From Bacteroidota bacterium (GTDB taxonomy: Bacteria > Bacteroidota > Bacteroidia > NS11-12g > UBA955), in NCBI GenBank assembly GCA_963169345.1, contig CAUJCT010000058.1, forward strand, positions 23,889 through 87,888: DNA of 64,000 nucleotides, given 5' to 3'. The position numbers and the translations under genes are program-made. The notes below the pieces were generated by a model. That model was not told where the DNA came from and ran no database searches. It was given only the letters and a program-made list of their open reading frames with translations. Below are positions 3,201-58,099 of the stretch, piece after piece. The stretch's first letter is position 1. Each line of letters starts with the position of its first letter.

Positions 3201-3851
3201 GTTGACATAATAATAAACAATCTTACCATGGGGTTTACTGACTAATTCGCGCGTTTTCTTATAACCTCTGTTATCAGCGGAATCAATGATATAATTGCCG
3301 GTACTTTTTAATATACCGCTTTCATACCACTCTTTGCATTTACCAAACATCAGGTTGTTTTTATAATTTTTAATATAACTTTTCTGTTTGTTTTGATAAT
3401 AGCCTACCCATTCTCCGGTTTTTTTGCCCTTCTCATATTGACCCTGATATTCTACAGTTCCGTCCACATAATATCGAGTGGTTGGTCCATGCAAATAACT
3501 AATTGGTGGTTCATCAAACGACTTATAATTTTCGATGAGTTTAAGTTGTCCGCTTCTATGCCATTCTTTCGAATACAAGAGTTGACCTTCTTTATATAAT
3601 TTTTCAGAATTGACCTGATCGTTTTCAAAATAGGTACGTTGAAAACCATCTTTTATTCTGTTTTTAAAATTGTATTCCATGGAACGGTTACCATTGTAAT
3701 TATAGAAAGTAACCTGACTGTCCACGCCATTGTAAACAGAGATAGAATAAATCCGGCGATTTTGCCAGAACGTATCGCGTTTTGTCACTTGCGAAAAGAG
3801 CTCAGCACAAAACAGCAGCGACAGTGATATAAAGAAAGCGCTTAGTTTCAT
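288..3851 (-). CDS. Large exported MORN-variant repeat protein (YwqK-like repeats) with a non-repetitive C-terminal domain
   Basis: 1187 aa ORF with a signal peptide and many G-x-W-x-x-Y-Y-x-N-G-x-L-K repeats. TATTTTTG box lies 7 nt upstream of the ATG. Confidence 0.8.
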   Translation of the reverse strand: MKLSAFFISLSLLFCAELFSQVTKRDTFWQNRRIYSISVYNGVDSQVTFYNYNGNRSMEYNFKNRIKDGFQRTYFENDQVNSEKLYKEGQLLYSKEWHRSGQLKLIENYKSFDEPPISYLHGPTTRYYVDGTVEYQGQYEKGKKTGEWVGYYQNKQKSYIKNYKNNLMFGKCKEWYESGILKSTGNYIIDSADNRGYKKTRELVSKPHGKIVYYYVNGNKKSEINYKNGKMNGSYTTWFESGKLHEKAEYSMDVLSGVSKRWFENGLMEFEKHYGKPEMKNGYYRAVLNGPYIEYYKEGVLKLKGSFLNDKKEGWFEEYYNDGKLKSKNLYKNGMELSTTYYNYKTGQLLSQYYFEIDPKSGRSVLHGLSLNYNENGILRDSGSYYMGVRDGLWVSRLENGQLTSIIEYCRGKYCGIRKEWYYNGVLKYDAYKLNPLPGATDNYYLQNNYAESGQLISTTISDENNKVLYAKTYWQDGQIRDEKMYVPLVNKNSYNLSTDNFRIEYHYYPNGNPETFFVQTDNGYVGRKIDYYINGHLKSVKDFELQSYKSALELYWASDGTWIQSLSDTIPLSEVKSIYETYKNSKLVGLCDTIMDNGSWYKIYQLEKGKVLMKADYRGNILLGNVEVFHYNGRLAVQLIKAKADGMDTLRYYAANGKLIRTETSRNGVKVGVYATWNPITYVPSGWQLYSDSGILIENKYYEYGRLQYHHRYLNYKGPNYSNFLQHGKQESFHPNGQLRNVYYTDSGKTYGWAYIYYPNGRMESQSYFIKGNQDSLETKWDSFGNIKMIRHYKKGKAEGLSQTFWPNGKIEHKGYFKNNKYDSTWVEFDSLGNELRIREYVNGRLVMTQGISACFCNDTFKKEFSFLNMLNQHATLERVREWSFRFHQPLPEFYDHLFYKNFQSSGNQNSQYYNFDIVTYNIMKIGVTTSNRLNLIINPCRRLGNTYKPINCTLNIHNQDKSKTRLELETDVMALEFNSSLIREALTGQDSLSGLIAPTIVYFKSKQLSYNSQDLIDVSSGYQAMCFPWSVLGNTGMKIKTDLFNIDLNPEKNPYDYIYSYRYYYEERQSKGSDNFRYKGFMDEFVGLTADSFNLVLPRSVLSTNKDLFLVGKNLMIGEYRVIGSFALNVKLGVGLQYELANDNKVKFSPSLIESNMKALGFKEITTKYLPETSQLIVYFNYSVN

Positions 3852-3877: not shown

Positions 3878-4306
3878 GTTAAGTCGTTAAGTTGTTAAGT
3901 CGTTAAGTCGTAGTGCTTCGCTGTTAAGTCGTAAAGTTGTTAAGTCGTTAAGTCGTATTGCTTATCGTTAGATTTTATACTTTCAACAATCATTCTGTGC
4001 TTTCTTTCTGCGCCTTCCAGTTTGGGCAAGCAAACCAAAAGCCGTGACAAGGGAAAAAATCTTTTCTGTGTGTTTTGCGTGTTCCGCCCCAATTCTGCGA
4101 TCTACCTCACGTTAGCATCCGCGTATTCCAGTTTGCGCAAGCAAACCAATTGCCGTGTCAAGGGAAAAAATCTTTTCTGTGTGATTCGCGTGTTCTCTCC
4201 TTGTTCTGCGATCTACATGCCTTCAACTCCCCATTCCACTATCCTCAATCCTACCAATCACCCCACGACTTAACGACTCAACGACTTAACGACTTAACAG
4301 CGCAGC
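3878..4306. repeat. Composite intergenic repeat, copy A: (GTTAAGTC)n array, two ~111 bp units, inverted (GACTTAAC)n array
   Basis: Octamer arrays at 3878-3956 and, inverted, 4265-4306. Cores TTCCAGTTTG(C/G)GCAAGCAAACC-N4-GCCGTG(T/A)CAA at 4015-4050 and 4126-4161. Homologous to copies B, C and D. Confidence 0.92.
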
Positions 4307-4711
4307 TTCATTTTTCATCCTCCTGTAAAACCACAAAGGCAAAAATCCAAAATTGAGAATTGCAATGCCCAATACCAACAGTATTGAAGCGCCTTGCCAG
4401 TGTTGAATTTTAAACAGCAAACCTGTGCTGCATAAAGTAGCGGCTAAATAGCCTAAAATGAACATTGATTTTTTCATAATGATGTTATTTTTATTAATGA
4501 TGTAATTGGTTGCTTGTTGTACTTGTCTCAGTCCGGATATACCGAAACTGTCCAGTGCTTTCTGTAATGCTTGATCAAAATCTTTGCTGTCACTCAGCTC
4601 GAGCTGACAGCAGATATGATCGAGCAGACTCTCCTGTAAATCGGGCATAGTAACACCCCTCTCTATAATGTTGAGTCGGATAATTTCTATATTGTGCGCT
4701 TGTAATTCCAT
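4286..4711 (-). CDS. PadR-associated membrane protein with a GldL-N-like TM hairpin at the C-terminus
   Basis: 141 aa. Soluble N-terminal part (LLDHICCQLE) followed by two TM helices around GLLFKIQHWQGA. Start overlaps the padR stop (TAATG). The last residues AALLSR* are encoded by repeat copy A. Confidence 0.75.
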   Translation of the reverse strand: MELQAHNIEIIRLNIIERGVTMPDLQESLLDHICCQLELSDSKDFDQALQKALDSFGISGLRQVQQATNYIINKNNIIMKKSMFILGYLAATLCSTGLLFKIQHWQGASILLVLGIAILNFGFLPLWFYRRMKNEAALLSR

Positions 4712-5043
4712 TAACTGATTTTTGGGTTTAGTATAAGATTCATAGCGTGCACAAACTCGTTGAAGTCCTGCATCTTTTGCGCAATTACTGAATGACCTTT
4801 CTTTGTAAGTGAATAGTATTTCCTGACTCTTTTACCAATGAATTCCTTCTCAGTACTGAGGATTCCATCCGCCTCCAGCTTATGCAATGTTGGATACAAG
4901 GCGCCTTCGGTTAACTCTATGCGACCATTGGTAATATCTTTCACCCGCTGCGTAATTTCATAGCCGTACATGCGTTTGTTCTCATGAAGCAGCTTTAATA
5001 CTATGGGTTGAAGGGTTCCTTTTATCAGTTCTTTCGAATACAT
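4711..5043 (-). CDS. PadR family transcriptional regulator
   Basis: MYSKELIKGTLQPIVLKLL..MYGYEI..LTEGALYPTLHKLE..RKYYSLT is a typical PadR wHTH. Start moved from the track's 5130 to the ATG at 5043, which follows a TATATTTG box. Confidence 0.92.
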   Translation of the reverse strand: MYSKELIKGTLQPIVLKLLHENKRMYGYEITQRVKDITNGRIELTEGALYPTLHKLEADGILSTEKEFIGKRVRKYYSLTKKGHSVIAQKMQDFNEFVHAMNLILNPKIS

Positions 5044-5051
5044 AAGGCAAA

Positions 5052-5074
5052 TATACATAATATTCTTAGGTATA
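5052..5074. promoter_or_regulatory. Candidate PadR autoregulatory operator overlapping the padR -7 box (5048-5055)
   Basis: Imperfect palindrome TATACATAATATTCTTAGGTATA directly over the promoter. Confidence 0.5.
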
Positions 5075-5149
5075 ACATTTAATTTTAATATTTTATTGTG
5101 TGAGATTCTAAAATAATCTGAGTTTACCAACTTTTATTGTTGCCTGCTC

Positions 5150-12735: not shown

Positions 12736-13699
12736 GCTGAACGCTGCGCTGCTGAAAGGCTGAAAAGCTGAATCGCGTCGCCGTTGAGTTGTTAAGTTGT
12801 TAAGTGCTGCGCTGTTAAGTCGTTGAGTTGTTAAGTCGTTGAGTTGTAGAGTTTGTCGATATGCTTTAAGATTCTCTTAATGTATATCTCGTAGCATTCT
12901 TGTCGCTTTCGTAGGCGTCGTCGATTTATCGCGACGCTCCTGAAGTTTGAATTCTTATGATTGTCGATAAACTAGAAGTTTATCCTCAATCCGGCTTCTG
13001 TGTCTTCCAGTTTGCGTAAGCAAACCTTGGCCGTGTCAATCCCGTACCTACGGGATAAAATTTCTGCGTATTCTGTGTTTTCTTTCCTTATTCTGTGATC
13101 TACCTCTTCATATACCCACCGTTCTTTTTAACGCAGAACTCGCAGATAAAAGATATTATAATAAATTATACTTGGTAAAATTTCTAGATTTGTCTTTAAT
13201 CATTTTCGAACTATCCGCATTAAGCGGAGGGATTAACGCTGATAGATTTCGGAAAGTTCTAAGTTATCAAGACCAGTGAGCTTCTTCTTTATAGTTATCC
13301 AACAGAATGTATCCCGTATCATAAGGGACGGGACTGGACATTCCATAATCTCTTCTACCGCGACACAATTCAGCTTTTAAGCCTTTCAGCAATTCAGCAG
13401 TTTTCCCTTCTGTGTCTTCCTGTTTGCGCAAGCAAACCAATTGCCGTGTCAAATGAAAAAAAATTTCTGCGTTTTTTGCGTTTTCCGCTCCAATTCTGCG
13501 ATCTACCTCACGTTGGCATCCGTGTGTTCCAGTTTGCGCCAGCAAACCAATTGCCGTGTCAAAGGAAAAAATCTTTTCTGTGTGCTCTGTGTGTTCTTTC
13601 CTCGTTCTGCGACCTACCTCCCCTCAACTCCCCATTCCACAATCATCATCCCAACAACTCACCCCACGACTTAACGACATTTCGACTTAACGACTTAAC
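12736..13699. repeat. Composite intergenic repeat, copy B (nested, with a unique ~260 bp insert)
   Basis: GCTGAA-type octamers 12736-12773, GTTAAGTC array 12783-12853, hairpin 12915-12938, core 13005-13039, insert 13110-13368, inverted TTCAGC array 13369-13398, cores 13417-13452 and 13527-13562, inverted GACTTAAC array 13666-13699. Confidence 0.92.
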
Positions 13700-13705
13700 T
13701 GCCCC

Positions 13706-16961: not shown

Positions 16962-17825
16962 ATGTCGAAATTAATTCAGGTTAAATGGTACAAAGGTGTA
17001 TTGGCTTTTTTAATAGTCTTATTTGTTATTCCACTAGGTCATGCCTTAATGGTACTTACGGAACATCTTATACCGGGATACAAATTTGAGTCAGCCGCCG
17101 TATTAGGTTTTGCCGGACTTATCTGTGTGTTAATTGGTGTATATAAAAACAAGCGCGCCTTAGCAGCTACTCTGTTTGGATTCATAGGTGGTATTTTAAT
17201 ATGGACGGGGTGGGTAGAATTTTCATTTGTATGGATTGCCGAGAAGCTAAAGGTTCAACCCTTGGTAGAGAACAATGAAGTCACCACCAAAGGCGAATAT
17301 CTGGTGATGATGTCATCTTTGGGTTTGCTTTCGGTAGTATTGGTATTGTTAGTCTTTTCTAGTTCGCGTTGCCAATTGTTCAGATGGATTCAGAAGCACA
17401 TGCGATTGAATGAGATTCTCAACAGGGATTCGAAGCGCCCTTTGGCAGTTGTTACCTTTTTTGAAACCATCATGATCATCTGGACCTTCTACATCGTACT
17501 CTTGCTGGTTTACGATGAAGACATAGCAGGTTCAAAGCACTGGATGACCTATATGGTGGCCTTTGGTTCCCTTTTCTGGTCGATTTATTTATGCAGAAAC
17601 CTATTTAAGATTCAGCAATTGGATTATTCAATCAGATATGCCATTCCGGTTGTAGTTATATTTTGGAATTTTATAGAAATATTAGGCCGCTGGAATTATT
17701 TAACCGAGATTTGGATTGACCCCTTCGGACACTGGATGGAGAATACTTTGATCCTCCTCATCTTTACATTCTTTGTGGTTCAGGCAGTTTTGAATAGAAA
17801 TAAAGCTGCGCTGTTGAGTCGTTGA
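16962..17825 (+). CDS. Polytopic membrane protein of unknown function
   Basis: 287 aa with about 8 hydrophobic segments. C-terminal AALLSR* is encoded by repeat copy C. Confidence 0.8.
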   Translation: MSKLIQVKWYKGVLAFLIVLFVIPLGHALMVLTEHLIPGYKFESAAVLGFAGLICVLIGVYKNKRALAATLFGFIGGILIWTGWVEFSFVWIAEKLKVQPLVENNEVTTKGEYLVMMSSLGLLSVVLVLLVFSSSRCQLFRWIQKHMRLNEILNRDSKRPLAVVTFFETIMIIWTFYIVLLLVYDEDIAGSKHWMTYMVAFGSLFWSIYLCRNLFKIQQLDYSIRYAIPVVVIFWNFIEILGRWNYLTEIWIDPFGHWMENTLILLIFTFFVVQAVLNRNKAALLSR

Positions 17826-18247
17826 GTGCTGCGCTGTTAAGTCGTTAAGTCGTAGAGTTTATCGAAAAGCTTTAAGATTCTCTTAATTTATGTCTCGTAA
17901 CATTATTGTCGCTTCCGTAGGCGTCGTCGTTACCTGTCAGCCTCAGGCTGATCGCGACGCTCTACAAAGGTTAAGTCGTTAAGTCGAAGAGATTATCGAT
18001 AAACTTTAAAGTTAATCCGCATTCCAGTTTCCGCGTCTTCCGTTTGCACAAGCAAACCAATGCCGTGTCAATCCCGTACCTACGGGATAAAATTTCTGCG
18101 TTTTTTGTGTTTTCCGCTCCAATTCTGCGATCTACCTCACGTTGGCATCCGCGCCTTCCCAGTTTGCGCAAGCAAACCCCTGCCGTGTCAAAGGCCTCTT
18201 CTCTTTCTGTGTTTTCTGCGTGTTCTTTCCTTGTTCTGCGATCTACC
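17805..18247. repeat. Composite intergenic repeat, copy C
   Basis: Octamer array 17805-17860, hairpin module 17911-17962, short octamer array, ATCGATAAACTTTAAAGTT module, cores 18038-18071 and 18156-18191. Confidence 0.92.
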
Positions 18248-18276
18248 ACCCTATATTCATAATACCAAACGGGTTC

Positions 18277-18310
18277 AAAAAAAAAGACCATCAAAACTGA
18301 TGGTCTTTTT
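18277..18310 (-). terminator. Rho-independent terminator after pckA
   Basis: AAAAAAAAAGACCATCA-AAAC-TGATGGTCTTTTT. Confidence 0.88.
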
Positions 18311-18330
18311 ATGCTTGTATTTGATATTTC

Positions 18331-41913: not shown

Positions 41914-41995
41914 ATTTCATCATACTTTGGTAAAATTTGTTGCAACAATTTAAAATTTGACCCATCAATGACAAACAAGGTCGAAAATAACAATT

Positions 41996-42565: not shown

Positions 42566-42713
42566 TCACTGCAAAAATAAGAAATATAAGTAAGACAAAT
42601 ATGAGCTGAATGAAAAGTTATTCTTTATTAATTGGATTAAGATTAATAGTTTAGAATTTCTAAATTGGAAACGTTCGACTTTTTAGAATTATTATTTAAT
42701 AATTACGAGGAGG

Positions 42714-43258
42714 GAGATCGCAGAACAAGGGCAGAACACGCAGAAACCGCAGAAATGTATTTTTTTCTTTGACACGGCCAGGGTTTGCTTGCGCAAACTG
42801 GAAGGCGCTGATGCCAACGTGAGGTAGATCGCAGAATTGGGGCGGAAAACGCAGAAAACACAGAAAGAGAAGAGGCCTTTGATACGGCAAGGGTTTGCTT
42901 GCGCATACGGAAGGCGCGGAAACTGGATTGCAGATTAACTTTAAAGCTTATCGATAAACTCTACGACTTAACGACTTAACAACTCAACGACTTTACAGCG
43001 CAGCATTACGACTTAACCTTTCTTGAGCGTCGCGATCAGCCTGAGGCTGACAGGTAACGACGACGCCTACGGAAGCTACAAAAATGATTCAGGACTTTAA
43101 TTGCAGATTGTTTAAAGTCTATCGACAAGCTAAACGTCTTAACAGCGTAGCTTTACGACTTAACGACTTAACGACTTAACGACTTAACAGCAAAAGGCTT
43201 TAGCTTTTCAGCTATTCAGCTTTTCAGCTATTCAGCCCTTCAGCTATCCAGCTATTCA
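42714..43258. repeat. Composite intergenic repeat, copy D (inverted relative to A-C)
   Basis: Cores 42769-42803 and 42879-42912, GACTTAAC arrays 42963-43017 and 43138-43190, 52 nt hairpin module 43025-43076 identical to copy C, TTCAGC octamer array 43197-43258. Confidence 0.92.
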
Positions 43259-48423: not shown

Positions 48424-51400
48424 ATGAAATTATTCCTACTCAGCCTTTCTCTCTTATTTATTGTCACCACGGGGAATGCCCAGAATAGCTTCAGCACTGA
48501 ACCGGCAGTGTTTGTTGATGAATTTGTAAAGTATATGTCTCAGTCTAAAAAAACTGAGATTGTCAAAATGGCTGAAAATTTCTCAAAAAACTGGAAAGCC
48601 GGAAAAATCTTACCTGAGCAACAAAAGTTTATCATCAAAATTTGCAATACGATGATATATAAGCAACTTGCAAGAGACCCTTACTTCGAGTTGTTACTTT
48701 CCAATCTGGATTTATATTATCAGAAAAAATTCAGCCCAAATTTATTAAAACAATGGCAGGAAATAACCACTGCCCTTCTTGAGAAAAACCCTAAAGACTA
48801 TATTTTCTTCCTTGAAACTGCCAACTCTTTGTTCAAGGACAATACGTTTACCAGAAATGAAGCTCGTCGCTGGTATGCTTCAAACTCTAATTTTGAATTT
48901 GCTTTTGTTAAAAACAGAGTGGTTATCAAATTTAAGAGTCTCGACTTAATGTGCGATGCGGAATTAGATAAAATAAGAATTTTCAATTGCGCAGGTGATT
49001 ATTATCCGGATAAAAAAACCTGGGTAGGAACTCAAGGAAGAATCAACTGGAACAGAGTTGATAAACCTGAAACTGAAATCTATTGCACCTTTACCAAACA
49101 CAAAATAGATCTTAATTCGGGCACTTTTATTGTCGATTCAGCTCTCTTAACTTATCCTAAAGTTTCGAGCAGTAAAATTTTGGGCCGATTGACTGAACGC
49201 ATCTCTCAATCATCCTCTATTGAGCAAATAAAGACGTCTCCTTTCCCGCAGTTTATCAGTTATGAACCTACCATAGAAATTAAAGGCATTGTTGGCGACC
49301 AGGCCATATACAAAGGCGGTTTTTCCATTAAAGGTTCCAAAACCAATTCGCAAAGCTTTGGTGATGGTCAGGCGACAATTATTCTCCTGTACAAAGGAAA
49401 ACCATTTGTTGAAGTAAGTTCAAGTGCCTTTCGTCTCGACTCAGGAAAGGTTATGAGTCAGAATGCCTCTATCAAAATAAAAATCGATACAGGTTACATC
49501 ACCCATCCGGGTATTATTTTCAATTACAACATTACGAACAAAAAAATGATTGTAACGAAAGGTACAGATGGTTTGATGCGTATGCCTTTCTCTGACAATT
49601 ATCACGGTGTTGAAATAGACGTAGAACAAGTCATCTGGGATCAGTCGAAACCTTATATTGATTTTGACATGATCAATAACGACAAGGCAGCCTATGTCGA
49701 AACCAATACTTTCTTCAAAAAGTTTCTGTTTGAGAAACAACAGGGAGCGCTTAACCACAACCCTCTGGAGAAAATGTTTTACTTTGTAAAAAGCAATGGC
49801 AGAGCTTTCAACCTCAACGATTACGCGGCTTCCATCAACACAACTAAAGAATTTCTAAGACAGCAAATCATGGATTTGGCGGACGATGGTTTCATTTACT
49901 ATTATCCGGAAAATGATTCTATTTATGTCAGAGACAAACTGTATATGTGGAACTCTAATGCTTATGGCGGAAGAGATTACGACGTATTAAGATTTGGAAG
50001 TGTGATTGCGGCTAAACCAAATATCACTTATTACTTTAACAACCATGATTTGGTTATGCAAGGTGTGAGAAAATTCACCTTTAGTGATTCTCAGAATGTG
50101 GTAAGTATTCCAAAAGATCAGATACTGACTATTAAGAAAAATAAGAATCTGCAATTCGCTGGTCTAATCAGAGCAGGTAGGATTGATTTCTATTCCAAAG
50201 ATTTTCACTTTAATTATACGAATTTCCAGATGGATAATACCACGATTGACAGCATGGTCATTTATTATCCCGATGTCAACACCAACACATTGAGGAAAGT
50301 TGAGAGCGTATTGTCTAATACTTATGGGCGTATTTTAATTGACAAGCCCAATAATAAGTCGGGGTTAAAAGACTATCCTGAATATCCGATATTTATAGCA
50401 GAAAGAGGTTCTGAAATTAACTATGACCGTGCGGCAACCCACAATCACGCCTATAAAGCTGATAAATTTAAATTTGAAATTGATCCGTTTACAATTGACT
50501 CACTGGATAACTTCACAATTGCCGGTTTTGGTTTTGGAGGTACATTAAAATCGGATGGCATATTCCCGGATATTCAAAATGTAGCAAGGATTCAACCGGA
50601 TTATTCACTGGGCTTTGTTGACCATGTGAACTTGCCAATGTACGGAGGCAAAGGGACCGGAGATCTTACAATCAATTTAAGCAACAGAGGATTTTATGGT
50701 GTCGGTGACTTATTATATGAAACTTCCGTTAGCAAATCGACCGAATATCTTCTATTGCCTGATGCCACAATAGGTAACAGTTTTAGTTTTGTTTTACCTG
50801 AAAGTGCAAAATATCCGAAAGTGGATGGACACAATGTCAAAACTGAATGGTTCCCTAAGCAAGACAGAATGTTTCAGACCAAGCTGGACAGTAATTTCAA
50901 GGTATTTCAGATGGGCTATGATTTCGATGGTAAACTGACTTTATCACCTCAGGACCTTAGAGGAAATGGTCAGTTGATTTGGAGCGAAGCCATATTTGCA
51001 AGTGATGAAATGGTATTCGGAAGAAATAAATCATCTGCCAAACAGTCGAGTATCAAAATATTTGCAGTTGACCCAAGCAAGTTTGCATTTGAGTGTAATA
51101 ACGTCAACGGAGTTGTTGATTTCGATAAAAAGGAAGGTAAATTCCTGACTAATGTTGTTGGGGCATATACACATTTCCCATTCAACCATTATTCATCCAA
51201 TATGAATGATTACCGTTGGGATATGCTAAAGAAAACCATGGAAATAAAACCTGGTGCTGCTATGGGCAGTTTGAAACCCATTTTTGTAGGATTGCCTCAA
51301 AATACTCAGGACAGCGTTAAGTTTGAATGTCACTTTGCAAAATTTGATTTAGTGACCAACGTATTATACATGGAAAAAATTCCATATATTGATGTTGCAG

Positions 51401-52791
51401 ACAGCAGAGTATATCCTTTTGAAGGAAAAGCAATAGTAAGAGAAAATGCCAACATGGACCAGTTGGATAGTTCAAGAATTGAGGCTAACAGAATTGATAA
51501 ATTCCATGAAATTAAAAATTGTCGTACAAAAATTCTGAGCGGAAATTCACTGGCAGCTACAGGCTATTACAGATACATAGATAAATACAAACAAGAACAA
51601 CCACTCTTTGTAGATAGTATACGTATAGACAGAGAAAAGCATCTTGTAGGTTTTGGCAGAATCAAGGAAGACAATATTCTTTACCTCGATAAAAAAATTG
51701 GCTTTAAAGGATTGTTCGAAATCATCAGTACTAGACGCCCAATCGAATTCATAGGATATGTCAAGCCATTGCATTCATTTGTGAAAATGGAGACATTGTG
51801 GATTCGTTACAAAAATGTAGTAGATCCTCAGAATGTTGTAATAGACATTAGAGACCCAAGAGATAAAGATGACAAAAAACTAAGTGTTGGATTATACTTT
51901 GCCAATGACAGTAACCACGTCTACCCTATTTTATTCGACTTAAAGAGAAGATACAGTGATCCGGAATTACAGGCAGATACAGGCATACTCTTTTATGATG
52001 CTACTAAAAATGCCTTCTTTGTAGGTGATGAAGCCAAATTGAAAGGCACAGGATTGAAAGGTAATTTTATGCAGTTCAATGACGCCGACCAAAGTGTATA
52101 TGCCGAAGGTCTGTTTGATTTTGGGATTAAATCGCCAAGGGTCAATTTAATGACCTCGGGAACAGCAGAACACTCCGCAACAGACAGTACATTCAGATTT
52201 AATCTGATGATGTGGCTGGATATACAACTGCCAGCCGAAATACGGTCGAAATTGGCCAAGATGCTTATGAATGAAGGCGCGGGCTCATCAATCGGATCTT
52301 TGAAAAACGGGGATAATAAAATGGGAATTGCCAATTTAATCAGCGATGAAAAACTTGCTGCTAAAATGGTCAAAACACTTGAAAGTACCGGCAATATTCC
52401 TAGTGATGGTGAATTTAAAACTGGTTTCGTATTCACTGAGGTTGATCTGGCATTTAACAGAATCAGAAGAAAATTCATTGCAACCGGGTCGTTTAATATG
52501 CCAATCTTCAATGGGGCAGTTATTAACAAGAAGTTTTCGACCACCATTGCTATTGAAAAGAAAAGAAGCGGAGACAAAATTTACTTGTACATTGCCTGTG
52601 ATAATGGGGATTGGGTGTATTTTGAATATACCAGAAACAGCATCATCATAGCTACAAACAATGAAGAACTGGCAACAGCGGTTAGTACCGAATCCAATAA
52701 GGCTGCAGATGAACAACTGATTATACGAATTGGTACTGAGAAGCAAAAAGATAATTTCCTAAAACGCAACGATGCTGACCCTGACGAATAA
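48424..52791 (+). CDS. Very large exported beta-rich protein of unknown function
   Basis: 1455 aa clean ORF with a signal peptide, helical N-terminal ~130 aa, then a long beta-strand-like pattern. No T9SS CTD recognised. Confidence 0.85.
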   Translation: MKLFLLSLSLLFIVTTGNAQNSFSTEPAVFVDEFVKYMSQSKKTEIVKMAENFSKNWKAGKILPEQQKFIIKICNTMIYKQLARDPYFELLLSNLDLYYQKKFSPNLLKQWQEITTALLEKNPKDYIFFLETANSLFKDNTFTRNEARRWYASNSNFEFAFVKNRVVIKFKSLDLMCDAELDKIRIFNCAGDYYPDKKTWVGTQGRINWNRVDKPETEIYCTFTKHKIDLNSGTFIVDSALLTYPKVSSSKILGRLTERISQSSSIEQIKTSPFPQFISYEPTIEIKGIVGDQAIYKGGFSIKGSKTNSQSFGDGQATIILLYKGKPFVEVSSSAFRLDSGKVMSQNASIKIKIDTGYITHPGIIFNYNITNKKMIVTKGTDGLMRMPFSDNYHGVEIDVEQVIWDQSKPYIDFDMINNDKAAYVETNTFFKKFLFEKQQGALNHNPLEKMFYFVKSNGRAFNLNDYAASINTTKEFLRQQIMDLADDGFIYYYPENDSIYVRDKLYMWNSNAYGGRDYDVLRFGSVIAAKPNITYYFNNHDLVMQGVRKFTFSDSQNVVSIPKDQILTIKKNKNLQFAGLIRAGRIDFYSKDFHFNYTNFQMDNTTIDSMVIYYPDVNTNTLRKVESVLSNTYGRILIDKPNNKSGLKDYPEYPIFIAERGSEINYDRAATHNHAYKADKFKFEIDPFTIDSLDNFTIAGFGFGGTLKSDGIFPDIQNVARIQPDYSLGFVDHVNLPMYGGKGTGDLTINLSNRGFYGVGDLLYETSVSKSTEYLLLPDATIGNSFSFVLPESAKYPKVDGHNVKTEWFPKQDRMFQTKLDSNFKVFQMGYDFDGKLTLSPQDLRGNGQLIWSEAIFASDEMVFGRNKSSAKQSSIKIFAVDPSKFAFECNNVNGVVDFDKKEGKFLTNVVGAYTHFPFNHYSSNMNDYRWDMLKKTMEIKPGAAMGSLKPIFVGLPQNTQDSVKFECHFAKFDLVTNVLYMEKIPYIDVADSRVYPFEGKAIVRENANMDQLDSSRIEANRIDKFHEIKNCRTKILSGNSLAATGYYRYIDKYKQEQPLFVDSIRIDREKHLVGFGRIKEDNILYLDKKIGFKGLFEIISTRRPIEFIGYVKPLHSFVKMETLWIRYKNVVDPQNVVIDIRDPRDKDDKKLSVGLYFANDSNHVYPILFDLKRRYSDPELQADTGILFYDATKNAFFVGDEAKLKGTGLKGNFMQFNDADQSVYAEGLFDFGIKSPRVNLMTSGTAEHSATDSTFRFNLMMWLDIQLPAEIRSKLAKMLMNEGAGSSIGSLKNGDNKMGIANLISDEKLAAKMVKTLESTGNIPSDGEFKTGFVFTEVDLAFNRIRRKFIATGSFNMPIFNGAVINKKFSTTIAIEKKRSGDKIYLYIACDNGDWVYFEYTRNSIIIATNNEELATAVSTESNKAADEQLIIRIGTEKQKDNFLKRNDADPDE

Positions 52792-55307: not shown

Positions 55308-57953
55308 TTACAAAAACCAAATCTCAGAACCGTGCTCACTATCATCGATTACAAAATACAATTTATCATTCCAAATTATCATGTAACCAGGTCCGGATTT
55401 GTTGCTGGATGAAAATGTTGCTTCCACTATTTCTGTGCCCGATGATTTGCCATTGCTGCGCCATAACTCCGGTTCATTCTCTCCCTCTGAGGCTGTAAAA
55501 TACAATGATTCTTTAAAAACTGTTATACCTCTTACATCCGAACCATAAAAACCTTTTTTGATATCTTTCACCAAATCCGTTCCCTTACTGCTGCCATCGG
55601 TACGCCATAGCTCTACACCGGATTTACCATTTGTGGCAGAAAAATATACCTTTCCATCCAACAGCGCAAAACCGGTAGGATGTGAGTCTTCATTCCCCTG
55701 AAAAATATCTGACAGCAATTCTGTCCCTTTATCTGTACCGTCGCTGCTCCATAGTTCTACTCCTTGCTTACCATTATCAGCCGAAAACAACAATTGATTT
55801 CCAAACGCAAATAATTCATCCGGATTTGAACCATCTTCTCCTTTATTTATATCCATCACCATGTAAGTCCCGCTTTTACTGCCGTCACTCCTCCACAGTT
55901 CATCACCATGCTTCATATCATTTGCAGAAAAATACAATATGCCATTCATCTGAGAAAATGTACCGGGGTCAGAGCTGTGTCCGCCATCTGCAATATCTTT
56001 CACTATAACAGTGCCTTTTTCTGTGCCGTCAGTTTTCCATAATTCGTTTCCTTCATTAAAGTTATCGGCAGCAAAATACAAATTGGTTCCTACCAGATAA
56101 AATCCCTGAGGGACTGAGGAAGCCTGTCCTCTTTGTATGTCTTTAAGCAATATGGTTCCTTTAACAGTACCATCACTTTTCCAAATCTCGTTTCCTGTAA
56201 TTCCATCATTCGCATTGAAAATAGCTGTGCCATTCAAATCCCTGATAAAATAAATGATGGATTTGTCTTTCTCTGCATTAAATGTTTTCAGTAAACTCGT
56301 TCCTTTTTCCAATCCGTCCGTTACCCATAAATCAATTTTTCCTGAGCCATTGTCCGTCAATAAAAACCATTTGCCACTGACCACTTTCGTGGCTTCAATT
56401 TCAATATTGTTTTCTCCTTTATACAACTGTATGATCTCGCTTGTTCCTTTTTCAGTGCCATCTGTTTTCCATAATCTCAAACCATCTATATCCGACTCAA
56501 TAGCAAAATACATCTGTTTGCCTGCAGGACTTAAATGCGTAGGAGAACTCGAAACACCTTTCCTGTTTATATTGCATAAAAGCTGAGCCGATTTATCTTT
56601 CTCTAGCAGCCACAGCTCCGGACCGTCGATACCGTTATCTGCAACAAACAAGAGTTTGTCACTATACAATCTGAGATTCTTTGGCATCGAACCGCCTTTA
56701 CCATCCAAAATATCTTTTACTAATTTTGTCCCTTTTTCTGACCCGTCGGTCATCCATAATTCACTACCGTGTTCGGCATCATTCATAACAAAATAAGCTG
56801 TGTTACTCATCGAAACAGCTTCCATCATTTCATCCATTTTTGACTCTTTGAAAGTATGAAGCTTAAGAGTTCCGCTAGCCGTACCATCTGTTCTGTAAAA
56901 CTGATAAGCTGTAGCTTTTTTATCCTGATTAAAAAAGAAACAAAAATTTCCGGAAGCAAACAATCCTATTGGGCCTTCGGCATTTTTATCACTGTTGATG
57001 TCCAAAATTAGTTTAGTCCCATTAAGAGTACCATCGCTTACATACAATTCTCGTCCTTCTGTTTTAGACTCATTAACAAAAAACAATTTGTCCTTTACTG
57101 CTACAAAAGCATTGCCTGCTATAGTTTGATGTACTGAATTCATGGTTTTAAGTATGGCGGTTCCGTTTGCAGTTCCATCGCTCTTCCATAACTCAAGACC
57201 TTTTTCTTTATTAGAAGTTAAAAAATAAACACTATTAGATGTTGATACTATCTTACGAGGATACACAGAGCCAACAGGCAGCTTGCTTAATTGAATGGTG
57301 CCTTCATTAGTACCATTCGTTTTGTACAAGGAAATTCCATCCTTAACATTCCCCGTAAAAAAATAAAGTTCGTTTTTCCATACATGAAATGAAGTTGGAT
57401 ACGAACCTGCAGATCCTGTTTGAATATCCTTAATCATAGAAGTTCCAGCAGTACTTCCATCTGTTTGCCATAATTCTACCCCATTCTTTCCATCAGTTGC
57501 TGAAAAAAGAATTTTATTGCCAAGTAAGGTTAAATCTCTCGGACTGTAATTGATACTGCCGTTGTTAATGTCTTTTATTCTTATAGTTCCATCTTCTGTG
57601 CCGTCTGTTTTCCAAATCTCTGTTCCTTTATCACTTTCGTATGCTGTAAATAGGATGTTGTTGCCTAAAACAACCAATTGCTTAGGGTTCGAACCACAAT
57701 TACCGGAGCAGATGTCTTTGATGATGTTGTATTTTTGGGTACCCAGATCATATTTCCACAATTCTCTTCCATTGATTCCATCATCGGCAACAAAAACAAT
57801 ACTGTTACCAAATAGCACCATATCAGAGGGATGACTGCCCTGTGTCCCGGTTTGAATATCTTTTAAAAGTTTAGGACCTGAAGCAAAAAGACAATTGGTA
57901 GTAGAAAAAATCAGAACTGTGGTTATAGAGAGATAAATATGTTTAAGGCTCAT
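55308..57953 (-). CDS. ELWxxDGT repeat protein (beta-propeller-like), exported
   Basis: About 18 E(L/I)Wx(S/T)DG(T/S) units. Signal peptide from MSLKHIY (57953). No recognisable T9SS CTD. Confidence 0.88.
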   Translation of the reverse strand: MSLKHIYLSITTVLIFSTTNCLFASGPKLLKDIQTGTQGSHPSDMVLFGNSIVFVADDGINGRELWKYDLGTQKYNIIKDICSGNCGSNPKQLVVLGNNILFTAYESDKGTEIWKTDGTEDGTIRIKDINNGSINYSPRDLTLLGNKILFSATDGKNGVELWQTDGSTAGTSMIKDIQTGSAGSYPTSFHVWKNELYFFTGNVKDGISLYKTNGTNEGTIQLSKLPVGSVYPRKIVSTSNSVYFLTSNKEKGLELWKSDGTANGTAILKTMNSVHQTIAGNAFVAVKDKLFFVNESKTEGRELYVSDGTLNGTKLILDINSDKNAEGPIGLFASGNFCFFFNQDKKATAYQFYRTDGTASGTLKLHTFKESKMDEMMEAVSMSNTAYFVMNDAEHGSELWMTDGSEKGTKLVKDILDGKGGSMPKNLRLYSDKLLFVADNGIDGPELWLLEKDKSAQLLCNINRKGVSSSPTHLSPAGKQMYFAIESDIDGLRLWKTDGTEKGTSEIIQLYKGENNIEIEATKVVSGKWFLLTDNGSGKIDLWVTDGLEKGTSLLKTFNAEKDKSIIYFIRDLNGTAIFNANDGITGNEIWKSDGTVKGTILLKDIQRGQASSVPQGFYLVGTNLYFAADNFNEGNELWKTDGTEKGTVIVKDIADGGHSSDPGTFSQMNGILYFSANDMKHGDELWRSDGSKSGTYMVMDINKGEDGSNPDELFAFGNQLLFSADNGKQGVELWSSDGTDKGTELLSDIFQGNEDSHPTGFALLDGKVYFSATNGKSGVELWRTDGSSKGTDLVKDIKKGFYGSDVRGITVFKESLYFTASEGENEPELWRSNGKSSGTEIVEATFSSSNKSGPGYMIIWNDKLYFVIDDSEHGSEIWFL

Positions 57954-58099
57954 TCTGTAAATATGGAATAATGATTTAACTTCAAATATAATTCCACAAA
58001 AGGCAATACTCCATAGCAAACTATTTCACAACGAGAAGAAAATTTTGATTTAATGGTCAATAGCAGGTTCAAGACAATCAAAAAAGCTAAATTTGCAGG

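What the first reader, a model, noticed from the sequence alone, without database searches (positions are those of the whole stretch)
12736..13699. A modular composite repeat family with no transposase, at four intergenic loci (copy B is the most complete)
Seen: copies at 3878-4306, 12736-13699, 17805-18247 and, inverted, 42714-43258 use the same modules in the same order. These are a GCTGAA-octamer array, a GTTAAGTC-octamer array, an ATCGAT-centred palindrome, a GCGTCG..CGACGC hairpin, then 2-3 units of ~110 nt. Each unit carries a 34-36 nt core (TTCCAGTTTGCGCAAGCAAACC-N3-5-GCCGTGTCAA) and TTCTGCG-type short repeats. There are nine cores in 64 kb, in convergent, divergent and tandem gene contexts, and no transposase or other mobility gene in the window. 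Established: REP/BIME/REPIN elements are mosaic intergenic palindromes spread by a remote RAYT (HUH Y1) enzyme. Inference: this is a BIME/REPIN-like non-autonomous element family I cannot assign to a named type. The mix of short tandem arrays and hairpins resembles what I recall flanking GxxExxY (PDDEXK_3) and four-helix-bundle (23S rRNA IVP/Avd-like) genes, so these may be the cargo-less forms of such a system. That link is recollection, not shown here.
Basis: partly seen in the sequence, partly recalled or inferred. Interest (0 to 1): 0.8.

Follow-up and report, generated by a model that had tools for sequence, protein, structure and literature searches.

The report
Composite intergenic repeat on octamer-array hairpins
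Four gene-free intergenic stretches in this Chitinophagales-like genome are copies of one species-private mosaic repeat, built on the same inverted arrays of 8-base repeats that in many other bacteria bracket small "23S rRNA intervening-sequence protein" genes; this suggests, but does not prove, a widespread RNA-hairpin cassette that has not been described.

Summary
Four intergenic loci share ordered modules and nine about 110-nt units, and no mobility gene lies in the 64 kb.

- **Not an artefact.** Independent short-read assemblies of the same species reproduce the element edges and all break inside them.
- **The unit core is private.** It has no exact match in 185,579 species genomes or in JGI metagenomes. 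Two orthologous sites in the sister species (about 81% nt identity) lack the units.
- **The units travelled as a dimer.** Same-position units from different loci are 79-87% alike; neighbours within a locus are 72-79% alike.
- **The units are not a structured RNA.** They fold no better than shuffles, show no covariation and have no Rfam match.
- **The octamer arrays are widespread.** There are more than 111 hits across phyla, usually as a G/T-rich arm followed by an A/C-rich arm.
- **One gene family recurs beside the arrays.** It is 23S_rRNA_IVP, the four-helix-bundle protein: 8 of 74 neighbouring small ORFs. PDDEXK_3 was not among the recurring families.

My reading: this is a non-autonomous BOX/BIME-like repeat on an IVS-like hairpin scaffold. 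It was probably spread by recombination between arrays, and its stems are probably cut by RNase III when transcribed. Both of those steps are inferred, not shown. I rate it a new variant of a known kind, of moderate interest.

The parts
3878..3956 (+). Copy A, left arm: two blocks of GTTAAGTY octamers
   Evidence: It pairs with 4265-4306 (I16 and I21: 34 nt at 94% and 42 nt at 90%).
4001..4222 (+). Copy A cargo: unit dimer A1 (4001-4111, type I) and A2 (4112-4222, type II)
   Evidence: (period 111)
4223..4264 (+). Copy A tail: 50% C and no G
4265..4306 (+). Copy A, right arm: inverted octamer array ending in AGCGCAGC. It supplies the TAA stop of ORF 4286-4711(-).
12736..12772 (+). Copy B: GCTGAANN octamer array, starting 7 nt after the DsbA stop
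   Evidence: Its inverted partner is 13354-13399 (I18).
12783..12852 (+). Copy B, left arm: GTTRAGTY arrays punctuated by GCTGCGCT
12853..12975 (+). Copy B: GTCGAT/ATCGAT palindromes on either side of the hairpin GTAGGCGTCGTCG-ATTTAT-CGCGACGCT (12911-12939)
   Evidence: It is 88% identical to 17830-17929 (D10).
12991..13108 (+). Copy B: solitary unit B1, type II-like, with an inserted CCCGTACCTACGGG hairpin
13109..13353 (+). Copy B: unique AT-rich insert with an inverted CGCAGAA pair (13132-13147) and small hairpins. It has no ORF and no match elsewhere.
13354..13399 (+). Copy B: inverted GCTGAA array
   Evidence: (I18)
13403..13624 (+). Copy B cargo: unit dimer B2 (type I) and B3 (type II)
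   Evidence: The stretch 13456-13702 is 86% identical to 4055-4301 (D3).
13625..13699 (+). Copy B: G-free tail (13625-13665) and right inverted octamer arm (13666-13699), ending 7 nt before the DtxR stop
   Evidence: The array position is conserved in the sister species.
17805..18030 (+). Copy C, left half: arrays, palindrome, hairpin (17917-17962), second array (17970-17986) and TTATCGATAAAC. The first array encodes the last codons and the TGA stop of ORF 16962-17825.
18031..18253 (+). Copy C cargo: unit dimer C1 and C2, with no tail and no right arm
42923..43258 (-). Copy D, left half (read on the minus strand): GCTGAANN array (43202-43258), octamer arrays, palindrome, hairpin (43025-43070), second array and TTATCGATAAGC
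42703..42922 (-). Copy D cargo: unit dimer D1 (42813-42922) and D2 (42703-42812), with no right arm
   Evidence: Same-species contigs end inside it.

Best explanation
The four loci are copies of a non-coding, non-autonomous composite repeat that is private to this species. Its frame is a type of hairpin found in many bacteria. The 5' arm is made of G/T-rich tandem octamers (GTTRAGTY, GCTGAANN) and the 3' arm is made of the complementary A/C-rich octamers. In other genomes the same frame is either nearly empty (spacers of 35-250 nt) or encloses a 23S_rRNA_IVP (four-helix-bundle) gene.

In this window the cargo is a pre-assembled block. It consists of ATCGAT-type palindromes, a hairpin that starts with GTAG, a dimer of two 110-nt unit subtypes, and a G-free C-rich tail.

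Shown:
- The modules were copied between loci as blocks; they did not arise locally.
- Sister-species sites lack them.
- The arms of A and B can form stems of 34-42 bp on either strand.
- G/T-first arrays put stop codons in all three frames in front of a ribosome arriving from either flanking gene. Two flanking ORFs do end inside an array.

Inferred:
- Blocks spread by homologous recombination or gene conversion between arrays that already sit at many gene ends, or by an unknown enzyme acting in trans.
- When co-transcribed with neighbouring genes, the arms pair into a long imperfect duplex. RNase III would cut it, as it cuts the stems of 23S rRNA intervening sequences. This would uncouple the flanking messages and release the unstructured interior.
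- C and D, which lack a right arm, are truncated copies.
For: **The repeat is real and non-coding.** Indels between units are not multiples of three.

**It spread as a block.** Units at the same position in different loci are 79-87% alike; neighbours within a locus are 72-79% alike. Whole dimers are 79-85.5% alike.

**It is private and recent.**
- The core pattern has 0 hits in genome contigs and 0 in metagenome contigs.
- The sister species is 80-83% nt identical in the flanking genes.
- At site B the sister species has only an octamer array plus small hairpins. At site C it has a broken dinD-like gene.
- A relative whose DtxR is 80% identical in protein sequence has no octamer array or unit at either site (a 167-bp spacer at B, an unrelated tandem repeat at C).

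**It is multi-copy in the genome.** Every same-species short-read contig ends inside an element.

**The frame is shared widely.**
- GTTRAGTY x3 gives more than 111 stretches across phyla, 84% of them intergenic.
- Many arrays have an inverted partner 35-250 nt downstream.
- Period 8 dominates among the arrays.

**The link to IVP genes.**
- 8 of 74 small ORFs within 400 nt of an array are 23S_rRNA_IVP, and no other family occurs more than twice.
- About 8 IVP genes lie within 200 nt of an array, against about 6 in the other 688 kb.
- Five of six further IVP genes show G/T-rich arrays upstream and A/C-rich arrays downstream; the sixth has only the downstream arm.
- The same is true of three cultured Flavobacteriaceae.
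- The arms pair with z scores of -2.7 to -6.2 in five of six cassettes tested (-1.1 in the sixth).

**Stem potential.** Element A folds with an array-to-array stem on both strands, z -4.7 and -4.6.

**IVS precedent.** The Coxiella IVS has a 28-bp terminal stem cut by RNase III and carries the same gene family (PMC4990558).

**Stop codons.** See; ORF ends inside arrays are.
Against: - No transcription, cleavage or mobility data exist.
- C and D have no right arm, so the hairpin model covers only A and B.
- In B the GCTGAA pair and the GTTAAGTC pair interleave and cannot both pair in a simple fold.
- No target-site duplication or clean empty site could be defined, because the relatives are too diverged.
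- The array after the DtxR stop is conserved in position across two species. That fits vertical inheritance of the frame as well as it fits mobility.
- The wobble-pair test for an RNA-level constraint was uninformative, because arm composition alone predicts the bias seen.
- Cross-pairing of arms between orthologous IVP cassettes is as good as self-pairing, so there is no covariation evidence.
- About 90% of arrays have no IVP gene beside them.
Confidence: 0.5

Rival explanations
1. The elements are host-selected cis-acting modules (insulators or terminators) rather than selfish repeats. The arrays stop translation in all frames. The G-free, C-rich, unstructured interior acts as a Rho loading (rut) site. 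Together they end transcription and translation between closely packed genes. On this view the copies are inherited vertically and kept alike by concerted evolution.
For: - The tails have 0 G and 50% C, and GC skew reaches -0.72.
- The unit dimer is less structured than shuffles, z +1.0 and +1.9.
- B and C lie between convergent genes, in the sense orientation for the upstream gene.
- The array after the DtxR stop is conserved in two species.
- Arrays tend to read G/T-rich going outward from the adjacent gene end, 42 against 21.
Against: - A is antisense to both neighbouring genes and D sits between divergent starts, so orientation relative to genes is not consistent.
- The units are absent from both orthologous sites in the sister species.
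- Units group by position across loci, which indicates copying between loci.
- No intrinsic terminator signal exceeds chance.
Confidence: 0.2
2. It is a true REP/BIME system. The hairpin that starts with GTAG is the REP, recognised by a RAYT (HUH Y1) enzyme encoded elsewhere in the genome. The other modules are BIME-type filler.
For: The hairpin module reads GTAG followed by an imperfect GC-rich palindrome in B, C and D. This is the REP signature as I know it from the literature; I did not test it here. The architecture is mosaic and the window holds no mobility gene.
Against: - There are only three hairpins, all single and never in the inverted doublets that define REPINs.
- A has none, yet it carries the unit dimer.
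- The most repeated parts, the units and the arrays, are not palindromes.
- No RAYT could be searched for, because the genome is not available.
- The metagenome scan with the hairpin pattern returned only chance hits in DNA of 59-76% GC.
Confidence: 0.1
3. The units are decayed remains of former cassette cargo or of its untranslated regions (an IVP gene or another small gene), duplicated after the gene was lost.
For: The same frame holds IVP genes elsewhere. The sister species has a decaying dinD-like gene at site C.
Against: An IVP profile finds nothing in any window ORF of 40 aa or more. The units are a conserved two-subtype dimer shared by four loci, which is not what random decay would leave. 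No reading frame is preserved.
Confidence: 0.1
4. Each unit, or each dimer, is a small RNA gene, with tandem sRNA copies as in other bacteria.
For: A conserved 6-bp hairpin GTTTGC-GCAA-GCAAAC has a GNRA-type loop in most copies. An outer 4-bp helix tolerates C/U changes opposite G on the plus strand.
Against: - There are 0 compensatory pairs.
- The fold is no better than shuffles on either strand.
- No Rfam match appears even at E up to 5.
- No promoter or terminator signal exceeds chance.
- Orientation relative to genes is not consistent.
Confidence: 0.05

Closest known systems
23S rRNA intervening sequences (IVS) that carry the S23p/IVP ORF (Leptospira, Coxiella)
   Same: Both are bounded by terminal inverted repeats that form a stem of 28 bp or more. 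The family of elements with this frame carries the same gene family (PF05635/TIGR02436). Both are sporadically distributed and of unknown origin, and both are thought to be selfish (PMC4990558).
   Different: The window elements lie between protein-coding genes, not in 23S rRNA helices 9, 25 or 45. Their arms are tandem octamer arrays. The window copies have no ORF. RNase III processing has not been tested.
Pneumococcal BOX elements (boxA-boxBn-boxC); cited from my own knowledge, not read here
   Same: Both are modular, intergenic and gene-free. Both have a variable number of tandem internal units between end modules that can pair. Neither has an associated transposase.
   Different: There is no sequence relationship and the phylum differs. 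Here the ends are short-period arrays and the internal units are 110 nt long in two alternating subtypes.
REP/BIME/REPIN-RAYT systems
   Same: Both are mosaic intergenic repeats. One module is a palindrome that starts with GTAG.
   Different: The window has no inverted REP doublets and no RAYT evidence. Most of the repeat is not palindromic.
Long simple-sequence repeats of 7-8 nt: cyanobacterial STRR, and TAACTGA repeats of Beggiatoaceae, Cyanobacteria and Bacteroidetes (PMC4679880; Mrazek 2007 as cited there)
   Same: Both are intergenic tandem arrays of short motifs that abut start or stop codons. Both are patchily distributed across phyla and have no known function.
   Different: Here the arrays come as inverted G/T-rich and A/C-rich pairs that enclose cargo. 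I did not find that arrangement, or the link to IVP genes, in the papers I read.
MITEs with an internal minisatellite (BrickBuilt of Porphyromonas gingivalis, PMC4596501; title and abstract only)
   Same: Both are non-autonomous elements with terminal inverted repeats and tandem repeats inside, and both occur in Bacteroidota.
   Different: No target-site duplication and no parent IS were identified here. Two of the four copies lack one end.

Membership tests
REP/BIME/REPIN | Short imperfect palindrome preceded by GTAG | tested here: inconclusive
   The GTAGGCGTCGTCG..CGCGACGCT hairpin is present in B, C and D and absent from A. Three copies are too few to judge.
REP/BIME/REPIN | REPs arranged as inverted doublets (REPINs) | tested here: not met
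   Each hairpin is single and has the same orientation relative to its element.
REP/BIME/REPIN | A cognate RAYT (Y1_Tnp) gene in the genome, flanked by the REP | not testable with these tools
   There is none in the 64 kb. The rest of the genome is not available.
MITE | Terminal inverted repeats | tested here: inconclusive
   Met in A and B (I16, I21, I24, I25). C and D lack a right end.
MITE | Target-site duplication, and a parent IS with matching ends | tested here: inconclusive
   No direct repeat is evident at the ends. The empty sites in relatives are too diverged to align. A parent IS cannot be searched for.
23S rRNA IVS | Inserted in a 23S rRNA helix | tested here: not met
   The window holds no rRNA. 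The elements lie between protein-coding genes.
23S rRNA IVS | Terminal complementary sequences that form a long stem | tested here: met
   A has stems of 34 nt at 94% and 42 nt at 90%, and folds at z -4.7. This applies to A and B only.
23S rRNA IVS | Encodes an IVP/S23p ORF | tested here: not met
   No IVP is present in the window. IVP is present in the same frame in other genomes.
23S rRNA IVS | Excised by RNase III | not testable with these tools
   This needs RNA data.
Long simple-sequence repeats (LSSR/STRR) | Tandem arrays of a 5-11 nt motif, mostly intergenic | tested here: met
   Periods of 8 and 9 are found. 27 doublets occur against 0.03 expected.
Any Rfam RNA family | Match to a curated covariance model | tested here: not met
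   There are 0 matches at gathering score in the window. Only chance-level hits appear at E up to 5. Eighteen array loci yield only tRNAs.
CRISPR array | Identical repeats separated by unique spacers of similar length | tested here: not met
   The arrays are head-to-tail octamers with no spacers.

The most novel reading that the evidence does not exclude
The octamer-array hairpin (a G/T-rich arm followed by an A/C-rich arm) is the scaffold of an undescribed class of intergenic cassettes found across phyla: in effect, intervening sequences outside rRNA. Its cargo can be an IVP gene, nothing, or a lineage-specific non-coding block such as the one here. The arrays would serve three purposes: all-frame translation stops, RNase III processing sites, and portable homology that lets cargo move between loci. 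The IVP protein might bind these arrays.
Probability: 0.25. Interest if true: 0.8.

Novelty: new variant of a known kind. Interest (0 to 1): 0.55.

Why it matters
Two things have had no explanation for decades. One is the function and origin of the very common four-helix-bundle 23S rRNA IVS proteins. The other is the short tandem heptamer and octamer arrays of Bacteroidota, Cyanobacteria and others.

If both are parts of one hairpin cassette, the question becomes testable in cultured Flavobacteriaceae that carry the moaE-IVP-moaC cassette. The tests are RNase III dependence, binding of IVP to the arrays, and cassette exchange.

For genome annotation, these elements explain recurrent contig breaks. 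They also explain gene ends that run into repeats. On its own, the window family is an ordinary species-private repeat.

Tried and rejected
- **Core pattern scans.** Scans of the 185,579-species genome set and of JGI metagenomes found nothing. This is informative: the core is private.
- **Hairpin-module scan of metagenomes.** It gave 69 hits, all in coding DNA of 59-76% GC and none with arrays, so they are chance matches to a GC-rich pattern. That scan was wasted.
- **G·U against A·C mismatch counts in array stems** (49 against 22). I rejected this as evidence for an RNA-level constraint. Defining the reference arm as the G/T-rich one predicts an even stronger bias under neutrality.
- **Polarity of IVP genes relative to the arms.** I first read this as 7 of 8 consistent, then recognised it as trivial, because an inverted repeat reads the same on both strands.
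- **Cross-pairing of arms between orthologous IVP cassettes.** It shows no specificity, so it gives no covariation signal.
- **Sigma-70 promoter and intrinsic terminator scans.** Both were at chance level, and the promoter model does not suit Bacteroidota.
- **Search for strain-level empty sites.** Exact-protein look-ups found that all same-species contigs stop in the repeats.
- **Plasmid and phage BLAST** gave no match.
- **Array hits in viral contigs.** Twelve hits, none with an IVP gene beside it.
- **Coding potential of the 111-nt period.** Rejected because of frame-breaking indels between units.
Full report

Yes. The 22-nt core occurs 7 times at up to 3 mismatches against 0.00 expected. 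Two more cores each lack one base. All nine units of about 110 nt align at 75% mean column identity.

GTTRAGTY doublets occur 27 times against 0.03 expected, and only at the four loci. TTCTGYG repeats spaced 9 nt apart occur 10 times against 0.25 expected.

- a GCTGAANN array (B and D only);
- GTTRAGTY arrays punctuated by GCTGCGCT (all four);
- a GTCGAT/ATCGAT palindrome;
- an AT-rich stretch;
- the hairpin GTAGGCGTCGTCG..CGCGACGCT (B, C and D);
- a second octamer array (C and D);
- TTATCGATAAAC;
- the units.

First, A and B end in an inverted octamer array, so the arrays act as terminal inverted repeats (I16, I21, I24, I25). Second, a 41-42-nt tail with no G and 50% C precedes the right arm.

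The roughly 35 ORFs scanned directly against Pfam encode ordinary housekeeping, T9SS-cargo and regulatory proteins or proteins with no Pfam match, and precomputed Pfam labels on orthologues cover about a dozen more. None is a transposase, integrase, RAYT, IVP or PDDEXK_3. The elements contain no credible ORF, and the indels between units break any reading frame.

**2. It is not an artefact, and it is multi-copy.**

I looked up exact matches to four flanking proteins. This returned short-read contigs of the same species from at least 8 runs. They are 98.4-100% identical to the window, enter elements B, C and D by 27-126 nt, and all stop there. That is the behaviour expected of a repeat longer than the assembler's k-mer.

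**3. Host and relatives.**

The flanking genes place the window in Bacteroidota near Chitinophagaceae. They include GldL-like, T9SS and MORN_2 genes, and the closest named DtxR homologue is from Ferruginibacter at 68%.

The closest available genome is GCA_016786985.1, together with a Logan contig. It is only 80-83% nt identical in coding DNA, so it is a sister species.

- **Site B in the sister species.** The spacer is 291 bp against 976 bp in the window. It holds a right-hand octamer array of the GTTAAGTT type just after the DtxR stop, plus two small CCCTACGGG hairpins, and no units.
- **Site C in the sister species.** It holds a broken dinD-like gene.
- **A more distant relative (DtxR 80% identical in protein sequence).** It has a 167-bp spacer at B and an unrelated 62-nt tandem repeat at C.

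So the array frame at the DtxR end is older than the species split. The interior is not.

**4. The units are private and were copied as a dimer.**

The core pattern has no exact match in one genome from each of 185,579 species, or in 241 million JGI metagenome records. Nothing similar exists in the plasmid or phage collections.

The units fall into two subtypes that alternate: A1, B2, C1 and D1 against A2, B3, C2 and D2. Same-position units from different loci are 79-87% alike. Neighbours within a locus are 72-79% alike. Whole dimers are 79-85.5% alike.

The dimer therefore existed before it was dispersed. Local tandem duplication at each site is excluded.

**5. The interior is not a structured RNA.**

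- There is no Rfam match at gathering score, and none at E up to 5.
- The consensus fold keeps only a 6-bp hairpin (GTTTGC-GCAA-GCAAAC) and four outer pairs, with no compensatory change.
- The dimer plus tail folds worse than shuffles on both strands, z +1.0 and +1.9.
- Whole element A folds well on either strand (z -4.7 and -4.6), but only through the array-to-array stem.

**6. The octamer arrays are a widespread frame.**

My estimate from pattern degeneracy and database size is about 0.3 expected by chance.

Most hits are in Bacteroidota. Others are in Desulfobacterota, Chloroflexota, Gemmatimonadota, Planctomycetota, Proteobacteria and further phyla. Twelve are in viral contigs.

- 84% are intergenic, and they occur in all gene contexts.
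- Period 8 dominates the short-period arrays in these loci.
- Many arrays have an imperfect inverted partner 35-250 nt downstream. This gives hairpins with a G/T-rich 5' arm and an A/C-rich 3' arm.
- None of these loci matches an Rfam family other than tRNA.
- Two loci show the same kind of mosaic as the window, with octamer arrays next to CGCAGAG/TTCTGTG-type arrays of 8-9 nt and an ATCGAT loop: L054 (Chitinophagaceae) and L032 (Anaerolineales).

**7. The link to four-helix-bundle genes.**

- Of 74 small ORFs within 400 nt of an array, 8 are 23S_rRNA_IVP. Every other Pfam family occurs once or twice (individual matches).
- A profile built offline finds about 8 IVP genes within 200 nt of an array, against about 6 in the remaining 688 kb. 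That is roughly a 20-fold enrichment. No control pattern was run, so the figure is rough.
- Six IVP genes in these loci were examined for flanking arrays, four of them not next to a query-type array. Five show G/T-rich arrays upstream and A/C-rich arrays downstream; one (L072) has only the downstream arm.
- Starting from the protein side, three cultured Flavobacteriaceae carry an orthologous IVP cassette between moaE and moaC with the same bracket.
- The arms pair better than shuffles in five of six cassettes tested, z -2.7 to -6.2 (-1.1 in the sixth).
- PDDEXK_3/GxxExxY was not among the recurring families. One GIY-YIG gene was seen.

I found no paper that describes this association. The short arrays themselves are known as LSSR/STRR and TAACTGA repeats, and their function is still open (PMC4679880; bioRxiv 10.1101/2022.06.06.494920). 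IVP genes have been noted wedged inside cas operons (PMC3936711).

**8. How it most likely works.**

The closest mechanistic precedent is the 23S rRNA IVS. The Coxiella IVS is a 428-nt element with a 28-bp terminal stem. RNase III cuts it within the stem. It carries the same ORF family and is regarded as selfish, with an unknown mode of spread (PMC4990558).

By analogy, A and B would form duplexes of 34-42 bp when transcribed from either strand, and these would be processed. I infer this; it has not been shown.

What the sequence does show is that arrays read in the G/T-rich direction carry stops in all three frames, and GTTAAGTY carries them in all six. Two flanking ORFs end inside an array: 4286-4711 on the minus strand and 16962-17825, whose last six residues are array-encoded. 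Arrays also tend to face outward from the adjacent gene end in that direction, 42 against 21.

For dispersal I favour recombination or gene conversion between arrays already sitting at gene ends. Three observations fit that:
- a conserved array with variable interiors at the DtxR site;
- block-wise sharing of modules;
- one-armed copies at C and D.

An unknown trans-acting enzyme is not excluded.

**9. Rivals.**

- **Host-selected insulator or Rho-loading module.** The G-free unstructured interior and the convergent contexts of B and C fit. The inconsistent orientation of A and D, and the absence from sister-species sites, argue against.
- **REP/RAYT membership.** This rests only on the GTAG start of the hairpin. 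The doublet criterion fails and a RAYT cannot be searched for.
- **Decayed cargo, and sRNA genes.** Both are poorly supported.

**10. Verdict.**

I class it as a new variant of a known kind, namely BOX/BIME-like mosaic repeats, LSSR arrays and IVS-like hairpins. On its own the window family is an ordinary species-private repeat. The wider array-hairpin and IVP cassette it points to is the interesting part, and it can be tested in cultured strains.

Noticed in passing
L005:5847-6551 (sister species, orthologous to window 17826-18330): A broken dinD-like (DNA damage-inducible protein D, NF008573) gene with in-frame stops occupies the spacer that holds copy C in the window. The site downstream of PEPCK looks like an insertion hotspot.
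   Followed up: partly
L008:6274-6398: An unrelated 62-nt tandem repeat (2 copies, 92% alike) sits at the same spacer between PEPCK and the membrane-protein gene in a more distant relative.
   Followed up: no
L067:1694-2200; L216, L217 and L218:660-1095: A 23S_rRNA_IVP gene sits between moaE and moaC of the molybdopterin operon in several Flavobacteriaceae genera. It is bracketed by G/T-rich and A/C-rich octamers, and the last codons of the gene form part of the 3' arm.
   Followed up: partly
L092:2188-2958: An IVP cassette with (GTTGAGTT)n and (GATGATTT)n arms lies between two tRNA genes.
   Followed up: no
L032:1960-2400 (Anaerolineales MAG): A dense mosaic of different 8-9-nt arrays (CGCAGAGG, CACAGATTA, GGACGCCAA, TTTCTGTGT, CAACGACY) lies next to a tRNA gene. 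It is the same kind of mosaic as the window, in another phylum.
   Followed up: no
L054:440-1200 (Chitinophagaceae MAG): A (GTTGAGTT)3 array is followed by tandem units of 220-240 nt. Each unit is a long hairpin of CGCAGAGG and CCTCTGCG words around a TATCGATA loop.
   Followed up: no
L011:186-1623 (Desulfatiglandales MAG): A cluster of one intact IVP gene and two IVP fragments, plus an 84-aa GIY-YIG nuclease gene, lies beside an octamer array. The intact IVP gene is flanked by GCTGAAGG-type arrays like the GCTGAA arrays in the window.
   Followed up: partly
L065:574-621 and 3620-3667: Two six-unit octamer arrays in direct orientation lie 3 kb apart in a Pseudomonadales MAG. One abuts an ORF whose sequence looks like an IS3-family (rve-type) transposase; no family search was run on it.
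   Followed up: no
window 55308-58019 (-): A 903-aa protein (weak DUF5050/PQQ_2 matches) is built of 144-nt (48-aa) coding repeats (D4 and D5).
   Followed up: no
window 48424-52791 (+): A 1455-aa ORF has no Pfam match at E 1e-4.
   Followed up: no
window 41931-41969: A 20-nt tandem duplication (TAAAATTTGACCCAACAATT x2) lies in the short spacer between two minus-strand genes.
   Followed up: no
window 4286-5130 (-): A PadR-family regulator gene is followed by a small gene with a weak GldL_N match. The stop codon of the small gene lies inside the right arm of copy A.
   Followed up: partly
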